Position numbers and translations under genes: made by a program. This document shows positions 17,297-56,429 of a DNA stretch of 64,000 nt, in pieces; position 1 is the stretch's first letter, and each line of letters begins with the position of its first letter. The DNA lies in assembly GCF_055900595.2 (NCBI RefSeq), contig NZ_CM148325.1; one strand, written 5' to 3'. A model generated the notes under the pieces. The model made no database searches. It had not been told where the DNA came from and saw only the letters and a list, made by a program, of their open reading frames with translations.

Positions 17297-17318
17297 AGTG
17301 TTGCCTTTTTGTTATCAA

Positions 17319-17349
17319 TAAAAAAGGCCCCCCGGTTTGGGAGGCCTTA
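17319..17349 (-). terminator. pheA attenuator terminator
   Basis: Minus-strand RNA AAGGCCTCCCAAACCGGGGGGCCTTTTTT between pheL and pheA. Confidence 0.8.
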
Positions 17350-17394
17350 TTGTTCGTCTTCGCATTCTGTTTCACACGACGAAACGCCTCCCAT

Positions 17395-17442
17395 TCAGGG
17401 GAAGGTAAAAAAGAATGCGAAGAAAAACGGTGTGTGTTTCAT
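17395..17442 (-). CDS. pheL: pheA leader peptide PheL (15 aa, Phe-rich)
   Basis: Minus-strand ATG at 17442 encodes [15 protein letters not shown]; not in ORF track because it is under 60 aa. Confidence 0.85.
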   Translation of the reverse strand: [15 protein letters not shown]

Positions 17443-17497
17443 GTTTGTTTCCTTAAGTGACTTCAGTACAGTACCCGTACTGTTTTCACGCTGTCAA

Positions 17498-18894: not shown

Positions 18895-19607
18895 AATGCG
18901 CCTGTAAGGCTCTGTTACCAGCCGCGCCCTAACAGGCGCATACGATCTGACATTTGCATTCAACTTCGTTACTTACGGCCCGTAAACGGGCTGCCCGGAT
19001 ATGGAATCGATAACTGCTCCCCCATTTTATCCTCTTCAAGCTGGTGCTTTATGTAGTCCTGTATCTTCGCCGTGTTCTTACCCACCGTATCGACATAGTA
19101 CCCTCGGCACCAGAACTCCCTGTTTCTGTATTTGAATTTCAAATCCCCAAACTGCTCGTAAAGCATCAGACTGCTTTTCCCTTTCAGATATCCCATAAAG
19201 CCGGATACGCTCATTTTGGGTGGGATTTCCACAAGCATATGGATATGATCTGCGCAGCACTCTGCTTCCAGAATCCGTACGCTTTTCCACTCACACAGCT
19301 TTCTCAAAATACTGCCTATCGCCCTACGCTTCTCTCCGTAAAACGCCAGTCTTCGGTATTTCGGCGCAAAAACTATGTGATATTTACAGTTCCAGCGGGT
19401 GTGCGCTAAGCTCTTTTCGTCCCCCATTGGGACCCCCTTTTGATTTCTTGTTTGACACTTGCAGTTGCCAGACCGCAAGGTGTTTTAACAAATCAAAAGG
19501 GGTTTTAATAACTGGCTCAAAGCTGAAAGCTTTCCGGAACCCCCAGCCTAGCTGGGGGTTTTCTGTGCACAAAAAAATCCGGAAACGAGTGAGCGTTTCC
19601 GGATTCT
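18895..19607 (-). mobile_element. IS200-like element (IS200/IS605 family), approx. 0.71 kb, boundaries +/- ~20 bp
   Basis: Contains Y1/HUH transposase tnpA, a terminator-like perfect palindrome near the left end (19577-19603), a 5'-UTR palindrome (19540-19558) and a 10-bp inverted repeat after the stop (18896-18905 / 18932-18941); extent inferred from expected IS4 leader length. Confidence 0.7.
18969..19427 (-). CDS. tnpA: IS200 transposase TnpA (Y1 HUH single-strand transposase)
   Basis: MGDEKSLAHTRWNCKYHIVFAPKYRR...HIHMLVEIPPK... 152 aa; the HxH (HIHML) motif is directly visible; ORF-track start at 19478 is an upstream extension. Confidence 0.9.
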   Translation of the reverse strand: MGDEKSLAHTRWNCKYHIVFAPKYRRLAFYGEKRRAIGSILRKLCEWKSVRILEAECCADHIHMLVEIPPKMSVSGFMGYLKGKSSLMLYEQFGDLKFKYRNREFWCRGYYVDTVGKNTAKIQDYIKHQLEEDKMGEQLSIPYPGSPFTGRK

Positions 19608-22273: not shown

Positions 22274-22334
22274 CCTAAAGAATCAAGACGATCCGGTACG
22301 CGTGATTTTCTTTTCACATTAATCTGGTCAATAA

Positions 22335-22364
22335 CCTTGAATAATTGAGGGATGACCTCATTTA
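22335..22364 (+). promoter_or_regulatory. Sigma-32 promoter of clpB
   Basis: ccttgaa (-35, 22335-22341) and cctcattta (-10, 22356-22364). Confidence 0.75.
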
Positions 22365-22402
22365 ATCTCCAGTAGCAACTTTGATCCGTTATGGGAGGAG
22401 TT

Positions 22403-24976
22403 ATGCGTCTGGATCGTCTTACTAATAAATTCCAGCTTGCTCTTGCCGATGCCCAATCACTTGCACTCGGGCACGACAACCAATTCATCGAACCACTTCA
22501 TTTAATGAGCGCCCTGCTGAATCAGGAAGGGGGTTCGGTTAGTCCTTTATTAACATCCGCCGGCATCAATGCTGGTCAGTTGCGCACAGATATCAATCAG
22601 GCATTAAATCGTTTACCGCAGGTTGAAGGCACTGGCGGCGATGTCCAGCCCTCACAGGATCTGGTGCGCGTTCTTAATCTTTGCGACAAGCTGGCGCAAA
22701 AACGTGGTGATAACTTTATCTCGTCAGAACTGTTCGTTCTGGCGGCACTTGAGTCTCGCGGCACGCTGGCCGACATCCTGAAAGCAGCAGGGGCGACCAC
22801 CGCCAACATTACTCAAGCGATTGAACAAATGCGTGGAGGTGAAAGCGTGAACGATCAAGGAGCTGAAGACCAACGTCAGGCTTTGAAAAAATACACTATC
22901 GACCTCACCGAACGAGCCGAACAAGGCAAACTCGATCCGGTGATTGGCCGTGATGAAGAAATTCGCCGTACCATTCAGGTACTGCAACGTCGTACTAAAA
23001 ATAACCCGGTGCTGATTGGTGAACCAGGCGTTGGTAAAACAGCCATCGTTGAAGGTCTGGCTCAGCGTATTATCAATGGCGAAGTGCCGGAAGGGTTGAA
23101 AGGCCGCCGCGTACTGGCGCTGGATATGGGCGCGCTGGTGGCTGGGGCGAAATATCGCGGTGAGTTTGAAGAGCGTTTAAAAGGCGTGCTTAACGATCTT
23201 GCCAAACAGGAAGGCAACGTCATCCTGTTTATCGACGAATTACATACCATGGTCGGCGCGGGTAAAGCCGATGGCGCAATGGATGCCGGCAACATGCTGA
23301 AACCGGCGCTGGCGCGTGGTGAATTGCACTGCGTAGGTGCCACGACACTGGACGAATATCGCCAGTACATCGAAAAAGATGCTGCGCTGGAACGTCGTTT
23401 CCAGAAAGTGTTTGTTGCCGAGCCAACCGTGGAAGACACCATTGCTATTCTGCGTGGCCTGAAAGAACGTTACGAACTGCACCACCATGTGCAAATTACT
23501 GACCCGGCAATTGTTGCAGCTGCGACATTATCTCATCGCTACATTGCTGACCGTCAGCTGCCGGATAAAGCCATCGACCTGATCGATGAAGCAGCATCCA
23601 GCATTCGTATGCAGATTGACTCAAAACCAGAAGAACTCGACCGACTCGATCGTCGTATCATCCAGCTCAAACTGGAACAACAGGCGTTAATGAAAGAGTC
23701 TGATGAAGCCAGTAAAAAACGCCTGGATATGCTCAACGAAGAACTGAGCGACAAAGAACGTCAGTATTCCGAGTTAGAAGAAGAGTGGAAAGCTGAGAAA
23801 GCGTCGCTTTCTGGTACGCAGACCATTAAAGCGGAACTGGAACAGGCGAAAATCGCCATTGAACAGGCTCGCCGTGTGGGTGATCTGGCGCGGATGTCTG
23901 AACTGCAATATGGCAAAATTCCAGAACTGGAAAAGCAACTGGAAGCCGCAACGCAGCTCGAAGGCAAAACTATGCGTCTCTTGCGTAATAAAGTGACCGA
24001 CGCCGAAATTGCTGAAGTGCTGGCGCGTTGGACGGGGATTCCGGTTTCTCGCATGATGGAAAGCGAGCGCGAAAAACTGCTGCGTATGGAGCAAGAGCTG
24101 CACCATCGCGTTATTGGTCAGAACGAAGCGGTTGATGCGGTATCTAACGCTATTCGTCGTAGCCGTGCGGGGCTTGCTGACCCGAATCGCCCGATTGGTT
24201 CATTCCTGTTCCTCGGCCCAACGGGTGTGGGGAAAACTGAGCTTTGTAAGGCGCTGGCGAACTTTATGTTTGATAGCGACGAGGCGATGGTCCGTATCGA
24301 TATGTCCGAGTTTATGGAGAAACACTCGGTGTCTCGTCTGGTTGGTGCGCCTCCGGGATATGTCGGTTATGAAGAAGGTGGCTACCTGACCGAAGCGGTG
24401 CGTCGTCGTCCGTATTCCGTCATCCTGCTGGATGAAGTGGAAAAAGCGCATCCGGATGTCTTCAACATTCTGTTGCAGGTACTGGATGATGGGCGTCTGA
24501 CTGACGGGCAGGGGAGAACGGTCGACTTCCGTAATACGGTTGTCATTATGACCTCTAACCTCGGTTCCGATTTGATTCAGGAACGCTTCGGTGAACTGGA
24601 TTATGCGCACATGAAAGAGCTGGTACTCGGTGTGGTAAGCCATAACTTCCGTCCGGAATTCATTAACCGTATCGATGAAGTGGTGGTCTTCCATCCGCTG
24701 GGTGAACAGCACATTGCGTCGATTGCGCAGATTCAGTTGAAACGTCTGTACAAACGTCTGGAAGAACGTGGTTATGAAATCCACATTTCTGACGAGGCGC
24801 TGAAACTGCTGAGCGAGAACGGTTACGATCCGGTCTATGGTGCACGTCCTCTGAAACGTGCTATCCAGCAGCAGATCGAAAACCCGCTGGCACAGCAAAT
24901 ACTGTCTGGTGAATTGGTTCCGGGTAAAGTTATTCGCCTGGAAGTTAATGAAGACAGGATTGTCGCCGTCCAGTAA
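22403..24976 (+). CDS. clpB: Chaperone ClpB (Hsp100 disaggregase)
   Basis: [27 protein letters not shown]... 857 aa, two AAA+ modules; ORF-track 22391 start is 4 codons upstream. Confidence 0.96.
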
Positions 24977-25417: not shown

Positions 25418-26959
<1,542 letters not shown>

Positions 26960-27044
26960 CCTTAAAGAACTGTTCTTTGCAGTGCTCACACAGATTGTCT
27001 GATAGAAAGTGAAAAGCAAGGCGTCTTGCGAAGCAGACTGATAC

Positions 27045-27120
27045 GTCCCCTTCGTCTAGAGGCCCAGGACACCGCCCTTTCACGGCGGTAACAGGGGTTC
27101 GAATCCCCTAGGGGACGCCA
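27045..27120 (+). tRNA. gltW: tRNA-Glu (UUC) in the 16S-23S spacer
   Basis: GTCCCCTTCGTCTAGAGGCCCAGGACACCGCCCTTTCACGGCGGTAACAGGGGTTCGAATCCCCTAGGGGACGCCA. Confidence 0.97.
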
Positions 27121-27314
27121 CTTGCTGGTTTGTGAGTGAAAGTCGCCGACCTTAATATCGTTAAAGATGACTTACGAGTCATGTTTAAGATATTTGCTCT
27201 TTAAAAATCTGGATCAAGCTGAAAATTGAAACACTGAACAATGAAAGTTGTTCGTGAGTCTCTCAAATTTTCGCAACACGATGATGAATCGAAAGAAACA
27301 TCTTCGGGTTGTGA

Positions 27315-30219
<2,905 letters not shown>

Positions 30220-30312
30220 ACAACGCCGAAGATGTTTTGGCGGATTGAGAGAAGATTTTCAGCCTGATACAGATTAAATCAGAACGCAGAAGCGGTCTGA
30301 TGAAACAGAATT

Positions 30313-30432
30313 TGCCTGGCGGCCTTAGCGCGGTGGTCCCACCTGACCCCATGCCGAACTCAGAAGTGAAACGCCGTAGCGCCGATGGTAGTGTGGGGTC
30401 TCCCCATGCGAGAGTAGGGAACTGCCAGGCAT
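30313..30432 (+). rRNA. rrfG: 5S ribosomal RNA
   Basis: TGCCTGGCGGC...GGAACTGCCAGGCAT, 120 nt. Confidence 0.97.
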
Positions 30433-42075: not shown

Positions 42076-42272
42076 TGCCGGGCTTAAACCCGGCACCTAA
42101 CTTGTCGACGAAGTGCGTTTTGTTCATGCCGGATGCGGCGTGAACGCCTTATCCGGCCTACAAGATCGTGCAAATTCAATATATTGCATGAGCCATGTAG
42201 GCCTGATAAGCGTAGAGCATCAGGCAGTTTTGCGTTTGCCAGCACTTTTAATTCCGGGCTTAAACCCGGAAT
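42076..42272. repeat. BIME: two inverted REP elements flanked by near-identical ccgggcttaaacccgg palindromes
   Basis: REP gccggatgcggcgtgaacgccttatccggcctac (42128-42161), inverted REP gtaggcctgataagcgtagagcatcaggc (42197-42225), palindromes at 42078-42093 and 42255-42270. Confidence 0.75.
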
Positions 42273-47753: not shown

Positions 47754-48709
47754 TGAAGCAACTTTGGTTTGCCATGTCATTAGTGACAGGTAGCCTGTTA
47801 TTCTCTGCTAACGCCTCGGCCACTCCCGCGTCCGGGGCGTTATTACAGCAGATGAACCTGGCCAGTCAGTCACTGAATTACGAGCTGTCATTCATCAGCA
47901 TCAATAAACAGGGTGTTGAGTCTCTGCGTTATCGACATGCACGCCTCGATAACCGTCCTCTTGCACAATTGTTGCAAATGGATGGCCCGCGCCGGGAAGT
48001 GGTACAGCGCGGCAATGAAATCAGCTACTTTGAACCGGGCCTTGAACCGTTCACGCTTAATGGCGATTACATTGTTGATTCTCTGCCATCGCTCATCTAT
48101 ACCGATTTCAAACGCCTTTCTCCTTACTACGACTTTATCTCCGTGGGACGCACGCGTATTGCTGATCGTCTTTGCGAAGTCATTCGCGTGGTGGCCCGTG
48201 ATGGCACACGCTACAGCTACATCGTGTGGATGGACACCGAATCGAAATTACCGATGCGGGTTGATCTCCTTGATCGCGATGGTGAAACGCTGGAACAATT
48301 TCGCGTGATTGCTTTTAACGTTAATCAGGATATCAGCAGCAGTATGCAGACGCTGGCGAAAGCAAATCTGCCGCCGCTGCTTTCTGTTCCTGTAGGTGAA
48401 AAAGCTAAATTCAGCTGGACGCCAACCTGGTTGCCACAGGGGTTTAGTGAAGTTTCCAGCAGCCGACGTCCGTTACCGACGATGGACAACATGCCTATCG
48501 AATCACGTCTCTATTCCGACGGATTATTCAGCTTCTCGGTAAACGTTAACCGCGCTACGCCATCGAGCACCGATCAGATGTTGCGCACCGGACGCAGAAC
48601 CGTCAGTACAAGCGTACGTGATAACGCCGAAATCACCATTGTCGGCGAACTGCCGCCGCAAACGGCGAAACGCATTGCCGAGAATATTAAGTTCGGGGCA
48701 GCGCAATGA
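47753..48709 (+). CDS. rseB: Sigma-E regulatory protein RseB
   Basis: 318 aa with signal peptide. Confidence 0.95.
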   Translation: MKQLWFAMSLVTGSLLFSANASATPASGALLQQMNLASQSLNYELSFISINKQGVESLRYRHARLDNRPLAQLLQMDGPRREVVQRGNEISYFEPGLEPFTLNGDYIVDSLPSLIYTDFKRLSPYYDFISVGRTRIADRLCEVIRVVARDGTRYSYIVWMDTESKLPMRVDLLDRDGETLEQFRVIAFNVNQDISSSMQTLAKANLPPLLSVPVGEKAKFSWTPTWLPQGFSEVSSSRRPLPTMDNMPIESRLYSDGLFSFSVNVNRATPSSTDQMLRTGRRTVSTSVRDNAEITIVGELPPQTAKRIAENIKFGAAQ

Positions 48710-49185
48710 TCAAAGAGTGGGCTACGGTCGTCTCCTGGCAAAACGGGCAGGCGCTGGTCAGTTGTGATGTTAAAGCCTCATGCAGCAGCTGTGCTTCCCG
48801 TGTCGGTTGCGGTAGCCGCGTGCTGAATAAACTTGGCCCACAAACCACGCATACCATTGTCGTACCCTGTGATGAACCGTTAGTACCGGGGCAAAAAGTG
48901 GAATTAGGAATCACCGAAGGCAGCCTGCTTAGCTCCGCATTACTGGTTTATATGTCGCCGTTGGTGGGATTATTCCTCATCGCTTCGTTATTTCAGCTAC
49001 TCTTTGCTTCAGATCTTGCAGCATTATGCGGTGCGATTCTCGGCGGCGTTGGTGGATTCCTGATTGCACGCAGCTACTCGCGAAAGTTTGCTGCCCGGGC
49101 AGAATGGCAACCGATCATCTTAAGCGTGGCATTGCCGCCAGGCCTTGTGCGATTTGAAACATCTTCGGAAGACGCGAGCCAGTGA
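48706..49185 (+). CDS. rseC: Sigma-E regulatory protein RseC
   Basis: 159 aa membrane protein; overlaps rseB stop by 4 nt. Confidence 0.93.
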   Translation: MIKEWATVVSWQNGQALVSCDVKASCSSCASRVGCGSRVLNKLGPQTTHTIVVPCDEPLVPGQKVELGITEGSLLSSALLVYMSPLVGLFLIASLFQLLFASDLAALCGAILGGVGGFLIARSYSRKFAARAEWQPIILSVALPPGLVRFETSSEDASQ

Positions 49186-49382
49186 TTTCACTGGCTTTGT
49201 TGCATTTTGCATAACAAATGCGAGGACGTTTCCAGATACCACAATCCATACCGTATGAACATTTCCTCGCCTCAATGTTGTAGTGTAGAATGCGGCGTTT
49301 CTATTAATACAGACGTTAAGCTCAGAACAGCGACTTCTAAAAGCCTGGTTAACCGGGCATTAAGGCACAATAATCATACTTT

Positions 49383-51182
<1,800 letters not shown>

Positions 51183-51197: not shown

Positions 51198-52172
51198 ATG
51201 GCGAATATGTTTGCCCTCATTCTGGTGATTGCCACACTGGTGACGGGCATTTTATGGTGCGTGGATAAATTCTTTTTCGCACCTAAGCGACGGGAACGTC
51301 AGGCAGCGGCTCAAGCGGCTGCTGGTGACTCACTGGATAAAGCAACGCTGAAAAAAGTTGCACCGAAGCCAGGTTGGCTGGAAACCGGGGCTTCTGTTTT
51401 TCCAGTGCTGGCTATTGTATTGATTGTGCGTTCGTTTATTTATGAACCGTTCCAGATCCCGTCAGGTTCGATGATGCCGACTCTGTTAATCGGTGACTTT
51501 ATTCTGGTAGAAAAGTTTGCTTACGGCATTAAAGATCCTATCTACCAGAAAACGCTGATCGAAACCGGTCATCCGAAGCGTGGCGATATCGTGGTCTTTA
51601 AATACCCGGAAGATCCAAAGCTTGATTACATCAAGCGTGCGGTGGGTTTACCGGGCGATAAAGTCACTTACGATCCGGTTTCAAAAGAGCTGACGATTCA
51701 GCCGGGATGCAGTTCCGGTCAGGCGTGTGAAAACGCGCTGCCGGTCACCTACTCAAACGTGGAACCGAGCGATTTCGTTCAGACCTTCTCGCGCCGTAAT
51801 GGTGGGGAAGCAACCAGCGGATTCTTTGAAGTGCCGAAAAACGAAACCAAAGAAAATGGAATTCGTCTTTCCGAGCGTAAAGAGACTCTGGGTGATGTGA
51901 CGCACCGTATTTTGACAGTGCCGATTGCGCAGGATCAGGTGGGGATGTATTACCAGCAGCCAGGGCAACAACTGGCAACCTGGATTGTTCCACCGGGCCA
52001 ATACTTCATGATGGGTGACAACCGTGACAACAGCGCGGACAGCCGTTACTGGGGCTTTGTGCCGGAAGCGAATCTGGTAGGTCGGGCAACGGCTATCTGG
52101 ATGAGTTTCGATAAGCAAGAAGGCGAATGGCCGACTGGTGTGCGCTTAAGTCGTATTGGCGGCATCCATTAA
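51198..52172 (+). CDS. lepB: Signal peptidase I
   Basis: 324 aa; catalytic serine (SGSMMPTL) is directly visible. Confidence 0.96.
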   Translation: MANMFALILVIATLVTGILWCVDKFFFAPKRRERQAAAQAAAGDSLDKATLKKVAPKPGWLETGASVFPVLAIVLIVRSFIYEPFQIPSGSMMPTLLIGDFILVEKFAYGIKDPIYQKTLIETGHPKRGDIVVFKYPEDPKLDYIKRAVGLPGDKVTYDPVSKELTIQPGCSSGQACENALPVTYSNVEPSDFVQTFSRRNGGEATSGFFEVPKNETKENGIRLSERKETLGDVTHRILTVPIAQDQVGMYYQQPGQQLATWIVPPGQYFMMGDNRDNSADSRYWGFVPEANLVGRATAIWMSFDKQEGEWPTGVRLSRIGGIH

Positions 52173-52318
52173 TAGCTTATCTTCGTTCACGTTGTCGCCG
52201 TTATGGCGACAACGTGAATTATTTATGAGATAAATCCCCCGTGGCTAACGACATCCCCCGTCGTTGTGTATAGAATATTCCCCCGAAGTTTAAGGTTGGC
52301 ACCTCCAGGTTGCCACGG

Positions 52319-52410
52319 CACACGAAACAGCGTTGGTCCCCATATACCGGTAAACTGAAACTGCAGCGAAGCAGTTAGCAGAGCCATGTATATCAGGTCT
52401 GTTTCGTGTG
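52319..52410 (+). promoter_or_regulatory. rnc leader long stem (RNase III autoregulatory processing structure)
   Basis: 12-bp perfect inverted repeat cacacgaaacag (52319-52330) / ctgtttcgtgtg (52399-52410) in the 5' UTR of rnc. Confidence 0.65.
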
Positions 52411-52414
52411 CTGA

Positions 52415-54027
<1,613 letters not shown>

Positions 54028-54158
54028 TTAGCATACTCTATGACTTTCGAGGTGCAGGAAGGCGGCAAGACCGTGAATCCCTGGGAGCTTACTAAAGTAA
54101 GTGACCAGGGTGAACGGGTGCAGCCAAGGCACCTGCAACTTGAAAGGCGACGAGTATG

Positions 54159-56029: not shown

Positions 56030-56072
56030 AAAAGTAAAACCCCCGAACTGGTAAGGAACGGGGGTTTTACTT
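56030..56072. terminator. Terminator hairpin downstream of acpS
   Basis: aaaacccccgaactggtaaggaacgggggtttt flanked by A/T runs. Confidence 0.7.
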
Positions 56073-56429
56073 TACAACTTTAATTTTGTGCAGCACACGA
56101 TTCCAACAAAAATGATTATGGATCAATTTAGTTATCCTGTACAAGCAACTTGCAATCTTTAGCATAAAAACTCGAGCCTTTACGAAGAAATCGATATTGA
56201 TGAAAAGATTAACGTGACCGCTTTTTGATAAGTACATTAGAATCGGCGTCGTTATTGGATATTTTGCTGTGTTCTACGCCATGCCACTGAATTCCCCCAT
56301 TGAAACGAGTGGTGTCGTCAAAGCTCTGGTGTGGAGTGCGGCACTCGATTCCAATAACTCGCACGTTCAGTTTTGGGGAGATGTAAGGGCTAATCTGAAC
56401 GGCTGCATTCCTTGTTTAAGGAAAAACGA

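What the first reader, a model, noticed from the sequence alone, without database searches (positions are those of the whole stretch)
52319..52410. Long-range perfect inverted repeat in the rnc leader
12-bp perfect arms separated by 68 nt in the 5' UTR of rnc would form a long stem; E. coli RNase III autoregulates by cleaving a stem in its own leader, and this is the likely structure.
Basis: partly seen in the sequence, partly recalled or inferred. Interest (0 to 1): 0.25.

Follow-up and report, generated by a model that had tools for sequence, protein, structure and literature searches.

The report
RNase III self-control hairpin (rncO)
The inverted repeat is the base of the long hairpin in the E. 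coli rnc mRNA leader that RNase III cuts to limit its own synthesis, a textbook element (rncO, Rfam RF00552), so the finding is real but already known.

Summary
The repeat exists and is slightly longer than reported. The perfect arms are 13 nt (52318-52330 / 52399-52411), with 68 nt between them. A G·U and a C-G pair extend them to a 15-bp helix (52316-52330 / 52399-52413). Chance is excluded: 0 of 5000 shuffles of the intergenic region give such a repeat.

The window is E. coli (lepA-lepB-rnc-era-recO-pdxJ). Rfam's rncO model matches 52285-52499 over its full length at 255.6 bits (threshold 43). The repeat is the basal helix of its stem-loop II.

Stem II alone folds at -41.2 kcal/mol (z = -5.3). 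An unconstrained fold of the whole element returns all three rncO hairpins. rncO is above threshold in all 19 Enterobacterales loci scanned. Across 36 representative leaders, stem I, the basal helix and the next helix are together 89.5% paired, against 36-41% when partners are slid. Compensatory changes occur in 11 of the 26 pairs.

Published work states that RNase III cleaves this long irregular hairpin and so exposes the mRNA to RNase E. Leader nt 1-129, which end exactly at the 3' arm, suffice for cleavage in vivo.

I could not retrieve the exact mapped cleavage nucleotides. One side observation: the sequence between the arms varies from 16 to 92 nt among genera, while the arms are conserved.

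The parts
52248..52276 (+). Promoter-like site of the rnc operon: -35 ACGACA (52248-52253), 17-nt spacer, -10 TAGAAT (52271-52276)
   Evidence: Consensus scan. The TATAGAAT...CCCCCGAAGTTT block recurs in the Enterobacteriaceae leaders printed. Promoter function is inferred, not tested here.
52285..52499 (+). rncO, the whole post-transcriptional operator: 160-nt 5' UTR plus the first 55 nt of rnc. G52285 is the inferred transcription start.
   Evidence: Rfam RF00552, 255.6 bits (gathering score 43), E 5.8e-61, model 1-214 complete. The UTR length of 160 nt is stated in PMC10037077. 52445 - 160 = 52285, which is model position 1.
52297..52315 (+). Stem-loop I (7 bp with one bulge, loop UCCA)
   Evidence: Rfam consensus structure. 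It is reproduced in the de novo centroid fold. 5 of its 7 pairs show compensatory changes in 36 Enterobacterales leaders.
52316..52330 (+). 5' arm of the basal helix of stem-loop II (CGGCACACGAAACAG). The finding's left arm is 52319-52330.
   Evidence: Covariation.
52331..52398 (+). Apical part of stem-loop II. It has a 2x2 internal loop (CG/GU), then a 4-5-bp helix UUGG(U)/(A)UCAG, then a lineage-specific rod-like extension that ends in the GCAG-CGAAGC-CUGC hairpin.
   Evidence: MFE and centroid folds. The length of this segment varies from 16 to 92 nt among 111 Enterobacterales leaders. Long versions fall into sequence-unrelated groups.
52399..52413 (+). 3' arm of the basal helix of stem-loop II (CUGUUUCGUGUGCUG). 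The finding's right arm is 52399-52410.
   Evidence: G52413 is leader nt 129, the end of the fragment shown to be cleaved in vivo (PMC10037077).
52414..52444 (+). Single-stranded, A/U-rich linker between stem II and the start codon, including the ribosome-binding region. It is the presumed entry region for RNase E after cleavage.
   Evidence: Unpaired in the Rfam consensus and essentially unpaired in the centroid fold, which draws one isolated pair here. Nearly invariant in 36 genera-level representatives. The RNase E role comes from the literature and was not tested here.
52445..53125 (+). rnc coding sequence (RNase III, 226 aa), followed by era (53122-54027)
   Evidence: ORF list. The matching E. 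coli records are annotated 'rnc: ribonuclease III'. K-12 annotation b2567.
52465..52484 (+). Stem-loop III (8 bp, loop AAAG), inside the first codons of rnc
   Evidence: Rfam consensus structure. The centroid fold reproduces 7 of its 8 pairs and leaves the closing U52465·G52484 pair open.

Best explanation
The inverted repeat is the 15-bp basal helix of stem-loop II of rncO, the cis-acting 'operator' in the leader of the E. coli rnc-era-recO mRNA. Transcription starts at about G52285. The nascent leader folds into stem-loop I (52297-52315), the 98-nt irregular stem-loop II (52316-52413, closed by the repeat) and stem-loop III inside the first codons of rnc. When free RNase III is plentiful, it binds the double-stranded stem II and cleaves it. 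This removes the structured 5' end and leaves a 5'-monophosphorylated, poorly structured RNA that RNase E degrades quickly. Less RNase III, and less of the co-transcribed Era, is then made. When RNase III is titrated by other substrates such as rRNA precursors, less leader is cut and synthesis rises. Shown here: the repeat, its non-random nature, the fold, family membership and evolutionary conservation with compensatory changes. Taken from the literature on the near-identical K-12 sequence: cleavage by RNase III, the resulting decay and the feedback. Inferred only: the exact cleavage nucleotides. Because the basal helix, the 2x2 loop and the 4-bp helix (about 21 stacked positions) are the only double-stranded part conserved in all genera, I expect the cut to lie within or next to the arms.
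For: Perfect 13-nt arms, 15 bp with G·U and C-G. 0/5000 shuffles give such a repeat. The arm sequence is unique in the window. Rfam rncO at 255.6 bits over the full model, with the arms at model positions 32-46 / 114-128. Stem II at -41.2 kcal/mol, z -5.3. The centroid of an unconstrained fold of 52285-52499 gives stems I, II and III. The region is present once in 5425 of 5426 complete E. coli genomes and is near-identical to K-12. rncO is above the gathering score in 19 of 19 diverse Enterobacterales loci, at 98-231 bits. In 111 unique leaders the 15 basal pairs are 91% canonical, against 28-46% with slid partners. A-U changes to C-G at 52329/52400 (67 vs 36 sequences) and at 52325/52404 (58 vs 9). 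In the tool count on 36 representatives, 89.5% of cells are paired against 36-41% slid, 11 pairs show changes on both sides, and 0/500 shuffles reach the observed values. G·U pairs and the 255.6 vs 22.9 bit strand asymmetry point to an RNA read from the + strand. Literature: RNase III cleaves a long or irregular hairpin in its 5' UTR, creating an RNase E-sensitive 5' end (PMC3867540; PMC10582724; PMC8708148; PMC5371410). UTR nt 1-129 are cleaved in vivo and the UTR is 160 nt long (PMC10037077).
Against: Nothing contradicts it. There are limits. The mapped cleavage coordinates (Bardwell 1989; Matsunaga 1996; Altuvia 2018 Table S2; Hauk 2023) could not be read, so the position of the cut relative to the arms is not verified. 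Autoregulation has been demonstrated experimentally only for E. coli, and its conservation in other genera is inferred from structure.
Confidence: 0.95

Rival explanations
1. The arms are only the closing clamp of stem II. In this reading RNase III recognises and cuts the upper, E. coli-specific extension (52338-52391), and the basal helix mainly serves as part of the 5' stabiliser that protects uncleaved mRNA.
For: The upper part of E. coli stem II adds about two more turns of imperfect helix. The reviews speak of an 'irregular hairpin' without giving the site. The exact site could not be retrieved.
Against: The upper extension is absent, or unrelated in sequence, in most Enterobacterales that keep a high-scoring rncO. 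There are only 16-22 nt between the arms in Enterobacter, Klebsiella, Kosakonia, Pantoea and Erwinia. In those genera the only substrate-sized duplex is the basal helix plus the 4-bp helix, close to the ~22 bp that RNase III accommodates. The arms are the most conserved and covarying part. A cut high in the stem would leave the 15-bp duplex intact rather than the 'unstructured 5' end' described.
Confidence: 0.2
2. The hairpin is an intrinsic terminator or attenuator that stops read-through from lepA-lepB, or transcription from the rnc promoter, before rnc.
For: It is a stable hairpin (-41 kcal/mol) in an intergenic leader.
Against: No U-run follows the 3' arm; the sequence there is CUGAAUUGUUGACGC. 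The terminator scan finds only the lepB hairpin at 52185-52219 and nothing at stem II. A 98-nt irregular hairpin is unlike intrinsic terminators. The region matches the rncO model over its full length.
Confidence: 0.02
3. It is a DNA-level palindrome: either a protein-binding operator or the terminal inverted repeats of a small mobile or repetitive element.
For: The perfect arms read the same on both strands. The minus strand gives a weak rncO hit (22.9 bits).
Against: The sequence is single-copy: one place per genome in 5425 E. coli genomes, none on plasmids, and no other copy of the arm in the window. Conservation follows RNA rules, with G·U wobble pairs and compensatory changes. The spacing between the arms varies from 16 to 92 nt, which is incompatible with a fixed protein-binding geometry. 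The strand asymmetry is strong (255.6 vs 22.9 bits).
Confidence: 0.01

Closest known systems
rncO (Rfam RF00552; Matsunaga, Simons & Simons 1996 RNA 2:1228; Bardwell et al. 1989 EMBO J 8:3401)
   Same: It is the same element. The match is full-length at 255.6 bits, at the same position upstream of and into rnc, with the same three stem-loops. The sequence differs from K-12 at one base in stem II and one in the loop of stem III.
   Different: There is no substantive difference. G52383 (A in K-12) changes a U-A pair to U·G in the apical part.
RNase III-processed hairpin in the rpsO-pnp leader (autoregulation of PNPase)
   Same: It has the same logic: a long leader hairpin cut by RNase III, after which the downstream mRNA is rapidly degraded (PMC5371410; PMC8708148).
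   Different: The hairpin sequence is unrelated. The regulated protein (PNPase) is not the cutting enzyme. From my own knowledge, PNPase has to remove the small 5' fragment from the cleaved duplex. No sequence or model match was sought or found here.
rne 5' UTR (RNase E autoregulation)
   Same: A ribonuclease senses a structure in its own leader and adjusts the decay of its own mRNA (PMC3997798).
   Different: The enzyme is different (RNase E, specific for single-stranded RNA), and so are the structure and the Rfam family. That family gave no hit in this window.
Phage T7 R1.1-type RNase III processing signals
   Same: An irregular hairpin of about two helical turns, with an internal loop, recognised by E. 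coli RNase III (PMC8708148).
   Different: T7 signals are processing sites that mature and often stabilise mRNAs. rncO cleavage destabilises the mRNA. The sequences are not related.

Membership tests
rncO (RF00552) | Covariance-model score at or above the curated gathering score (43 bits) over the whole model | tested here: met
   255.6 bits, E 5.8e-61, model positions 1-214 of 214, window 52285-52499 on the + strand.
rncO (RF00552) | Location: the 5' untranslated leader of rnc, running into its first codons, first gene of the rnc-era-recO operon | tested here: met
   lepB stops at 52172, rnc ATG at 52445, era at 53122, recO at 54156. The matching E. coli records are annotated rnc.
rncO (RF00552) | Three stem-loops (I, II, III), with II a long irregular hairpin | tested here: met
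   The unconstrained centroid fold of 52285-52499 gives I (52297-52315), II (52316-52413) and III (7 of the 8 pairs of 52465-52484). Stem II alone folds at -41.2 kcal/mol, z -5.3.
rncO (RF00552) | Structure maintained in evolution (compensatory changes in the helices) | tested here: met
   Across 36 representatives, 89.5% of cells are paired against 36-41% slid, 11 of 26 pairs have changes on both sides, and 0/500 shuffles reach the observed values. 111 leaders analysed. rncO is above the gathering score in 19/19 genera.
rncO (RF00552) | Stem-loop II is cleaved by RNase III | not testable with these tools
   This rests on the literature for K-12, which has identical arms. UTR nt 1-129 are cleaved in vivo (PMC10037077), and 'long stem-loop' or 'irregular hairpin' is stated. 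The exact nucleotides were not retrievable.
rncO (RF00552) | Cleavage destabilises the rnc-era mRNA and lowers RNase III synthesis (negative autoregulation) | not testable with these tools
   Stated in PMC3867540, PMC10582724, PMC8708148, PMC5371410 and PMC10037077. No computation here can test it.
Intrinsic (Rho-independent) terminator | G+C-rich hairpin immediately followed by a run of U | tested here: not met
   No T-run follows 52413. The scan reports only the lepB hairpin at 52185-52219.

The most novel reading that the evidence does not exclude
The arms, the adjacent 2x2 internal loop and a 4-bp helix (about 21 stacked positions) may be the ancestral minimal RNase III operator of Enterobacterales. 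The 68 nt between the arms in E. coli would then be one of several lineage-specific, sequence-unrelated rod-like expansions grown out of the ancestral terminal loop. The segment is 16-22 nt in Enterobacter, Klebsiella and Pantoea, 25-30 nt in Yersinia, Serratia and Photorhabdus, and 63-92 nt in Escherichia, Salmonella, Citrobacter and Raoultella. These expansions could tune the set-point of RNase III/Era autoregulation, or add extra cleavage or binding sites, rather than being neutral.
Probability: 0.2. Interest if true: 0.3.

Novelty: already known. Interest (0 to 1): 0.08.

Why it matters
The element sets the cellular level of RNase III and of the essential GTPase Era, which is co-transcribed with it. 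It is a classic example of a ribonuclease controlling its own mRNA. Recognising it here adds nothing new to biology. It does confirm that the first-stage reader can pick out a functional RNA structure from raw sequence. The comparative data give a compact picture of which part of rncO is conserved (the arms) and which part is free to vary (the segment between them).

Tried and rejected
1. I tried to obtain the mapped RNase III cleavage nucleotides. Matsunaga 1996 (PMC1369450), Bardwell 1989 (PMC401487), Court 2013 (PMC6311387) and Hauk 2023 (doi 10.1089/crispr.2022.0041) are not held. Altuvia 2018 has no held supplement, and it excluded rnc sites from its final set. The Gordon 2017 supplements contain no rnc/lepB entry. 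Reviews and other papers give the mechanism but not the coordinates. A free-text search for 'rncO' mostly returned isocyanate chemistry.

2. A terminator reading was rejected: there is no U-run and no scan hit.

3. A repeat-element or DNA-palindrome reading was rejected. The sequence is single-copy, the arm spacing is variable, and the covariation follows RNA rules.

4. The minus-strand ORFs that overlap the leader (52223-52501, 92 aa; 52290-52427, 45 aa) were disregarded. They are mechanical ORFs lying across a segment with large indels between genera.

5. The weak mir-2001 hit at 52186-52218 (20.1 bits against a gathering score of 74) is the lepB terminator hairpin, not a microRNA.

Full report
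**Observation**

The window around the finding reads lepB (stop at 52172), a 272-nt intergenic region, then rnc (ATG 52445, 226 aa), era, recO and pdxJ. The repeat finder reports a perfect inverted repeat: 52318-52330 GCACACGAAACAG and 52399-52411 CTGTTTCGTGTGC, with 68 nt between the arms. Two further pairs, G52317·U52412 and C52316-G52413, extend the helix to 15 bp.

The repeat is not a chance feature:
- None of 5000 dinucleotide-preserving shuffles of the intergenic region contain a perfect 13-nt inverted repeat with a loop of 3-100 nt.
- The expected number in the whole 64-kb window is 0.08.
- The arm sequence occurs nowhere else in the window.

**Identity**

The 288 bases around the site are 100% identical to many E. 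coli chromosomes. They are present, once, in 5425 of 5426 complete E. coli genomes. Against K-12 MG1655 the leader differs at one base in stem II (G52383 versus A, turning U-A into U·G), one base in the stem III loop and one base upstream of the promoter.

A scan against Rfam gives a full-length match to RF00552 (rncO) at 52285-52499 on the + strand: 255.6 bits against a gathering score of 43, E = 5.8e-61 (repeated). In the model's consensus structure the arms are positions 32-46 and 114-128, which form the basal helix of stem-loop II. The minus strand scores only 22.9 bits, so the element is an RNA read from the + strand.

**Fold**

Stem II alone (52316-52413) folds at -41.2 kcal/mol, z = -5.3, and none of 200 shuffles fold as well.

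An unconstrained fold of the whole element (52285-52499) gives, in its centroid, all three hairpins of the Rfam consensus:
- stem I, 52297-52315
- stem II, 52316-52413
- stem III, 52465-52484 (the centroid draws 7 of its 8 pairs)

Stem II is an irregular hairpin rather than one continuous stem. It has the 15-bp basal helix, a 2x2 internal loop (CG/GU), a short UUGG(U)/(A)UCAG helix, and further imperfect helices ending in a GCAG/CUGC hairpin.

**Comparative evidence**

A plain DNA-pattern scan for the conserved N-terminus of RNase III brought in 120 Enterobacterales loci. rncO scores above its gathering score in 19 of 19 loci chosen for diversity, at 98-231 bits. These include Salmonella, Enterobacter, Klebsiella, Kosakonia, Pantoea, Erwinia, Yersinia, Serratia, Rahnella, Edwardsiella and Photorhabdus.

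In a MAFFT alignment of 111 unique leaders, made without structural information, the 15 basal pairs are 91% canonical. With the 3' partner slid by 1-3 columns the figure is 28-46%. Specific patterns include:
- Compensatory changes: A-U (67 sequences) versus C-G (36) at 52329/52400, and A-U (58) versus C-G (9) at 52325/52404.
- Mixed pairs G·U, A-U, U-G and U-A at 52317/52412.
- Recurring mismatches at 52321/52408 and 52325/52404 in more distant genera such as Yersinia, Serratia, Rahnella and Photorhabdus. The perfect helix is therefore a feature of the Escherichia, Salmonella, Citrobacter, Klebsiella and Enterobacter group.

The tool count on 36 representatives covered stem I, the basal helix and the 4-bp helix. 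It gives 89.5% paired cells against 36-41% slid, and 11 of 26 pairs with changes on both sides. In the shuffle control, 0/500 shuffles reach the observed value on four of the five measures and 1/500 on the fifth.

**Mechanism**

The following comes from the literature on the near-identical K-12 sequence:
[quoted passage not shown] - Titration of the enzyme by abundant substrates such as rRNA precursors relieves the feedback (PMC3867540; PMC5371410).

PMC10037077 gives the UTR as nt 1-160. This places the transcription start at 52285, which is exactly model position 1. The same paper shows that nt 1-129 fused to a guide RNA are cleaved by RNase III in vivo, and nt 129 is G52413, the last base of the 3' arm. 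Within nt 1-129 the only hairpins are the 7-bp stem I and stem II. RNase III accommodates about 22 bp (PMC6212723). The cleavage must therefore lie in 52316-52413, which is within the finding's span plus three bases on each side.

The exact nucleotides could not be read, because none of the primary sources is held. From memory only, Matsunaga et al. 1996 assign the cleavage to stem-loop II and describe the 5' structures as stabilisers of the uncleaved mRNA. I mark this as recollection, not as a tool result.

**Rivals**

- A terminator or attenuator is excluded. There is no U-run after the 3' arm, and the scan finds only the lepB terminator at 52185-52219.
- A DNA palindrome or mobile-element end is excluded. 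The sequence is single-copy, the covariation follows RNA rules, and the arm spacing is variable.
- One open sub-question remains: is the cut inside or next to the arms, or higher in the E. coli-specific extension? I favour the former, for two reasons. In most genera only the basal helix, the internal loop and the 4-bp helix are available, about 21 stacked positions. A cut high in the stem would not give the unstructured 5' end that the literature describes.

**Side observation**

The segment between the arms is hypervariable in length:

| Length between arms | Genera |
|---|---|
| 16-22 nt | Enterobacter, Klebsiella, most Kosakonia, Kluyvera, Cedecea, Pantoea, Erwinia |
| 25-30 nt | Yersinia, Serratia, Rahnella, Edwardsiella, Photorhabdus |
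| 63-92 nt | Escherichia, Salmonella, several Citrobacter, Raoultella, one Kosakonia |

The long versions fold as rods, but they fall into groups without detectable similarity to each other. Alignment z-scores are 5-14 within groups and mostly 0-2 between them, with a few weak links up to about 4, for example Salmonella with C. amalonaticus. This suggests either repeated expansion out of an ancestral terminal loop or very fast divergence under a purely structural constraint. Whether it matters functionally is unknown. It is the only part of this locus that might hold something not yet described.

**Verdict**

The element is the well-known rncO operator, so novelty is "already known" and interest is low.

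Noticed in passing
window 52331-52398; loci L002-L121: The segment between the arms varies from 16 to 92 nt across Enterobacterales, while the arms stay conserved. Long versions (Escherichia/C. amalonaticus group, C. werkmanii group, Raoultella group, Kosakonia S29, Phytobacter) show little or no detectable sequence similarity to each other, yet all fold as rods.
   Followed up: partly
window 52321/52408 and 52325/52404; e.g. L012, L016, L010, L030, L003: In genera such as Yersinia, Serratia, Rahnella, Edwardsiella and Photorhabdus, the basal helix carries recurring mismatches (A·A, A·G or A·C at the first position, A·C at the second). The perfect helix is specific to the Escherichia/Salmonella/Citrobacter/Klebsiella/Enterobacter group.
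   Followed up: partly
L010, L111, L078 (aligned to window 52304-52307): The loop of stem I carries insertions of roughly 25-40 nt in Rahnella, Hafnia and one Enterobacterales MAG. Stem I therefore also has a variable apical module in some lineages.
   Followed up: no
window 52414-52444: The single-stranded linker between stem II and the ATG (TTGACGCATT..ATTTATTGGTATCGC) is nearly invariant across genera. This is more conservation than a ribosome-binding site alone would need. It may be the RNase E entry site or a translation signal.
   Followed up: no
window 52235-52290: There are three direct copies of TCCCCCG, starting at 52235, 52254 and 52279. In K-12 the first copy reads TCTCCCG. The third copy is the C-rich stretch between the -10 TAGAAT (52271-52276) and the start G52285. 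It resembles a G+C-rich discriminator, which could relate to the growth-rate control reported for this operon.
   Followed up: no
window 52247-52265: A small inverted repeat, AACGAC-N7-GTCGTT, overlaps the -35 hexamer. The equivalent sequence also folds as a hairpin in the Enterobacter, Klebsiella, Kluyvera and Cedecea leaders.
   Followed up: no
window 52185-52219: A 16-bp perfect hairpin with a 3-nt loop, followed by TATTTAT, lies just after the lepB stop codon. It is terminator-like. It also produced a spurious weak mir-2001 hit.
   Followed up: partly
window 17318-17443, 19437-19560, 22284-22422, 25418-30430, 42162-42204, 48670-49501, 56031-56107: A whole-window Rfam scan finds Phe leader, STnc490, RyfD, an rrn operon (16S, tRNA, 23S, 5S, StyR-44), ES036, AsrC (antisense of rseC) and ohsC. 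These account for the other perfect inverted repeats centred at 17389, 19467 and 56051. The repeats centred at about 1163, 19590 and 40476 were not examined.
   Followed up: no
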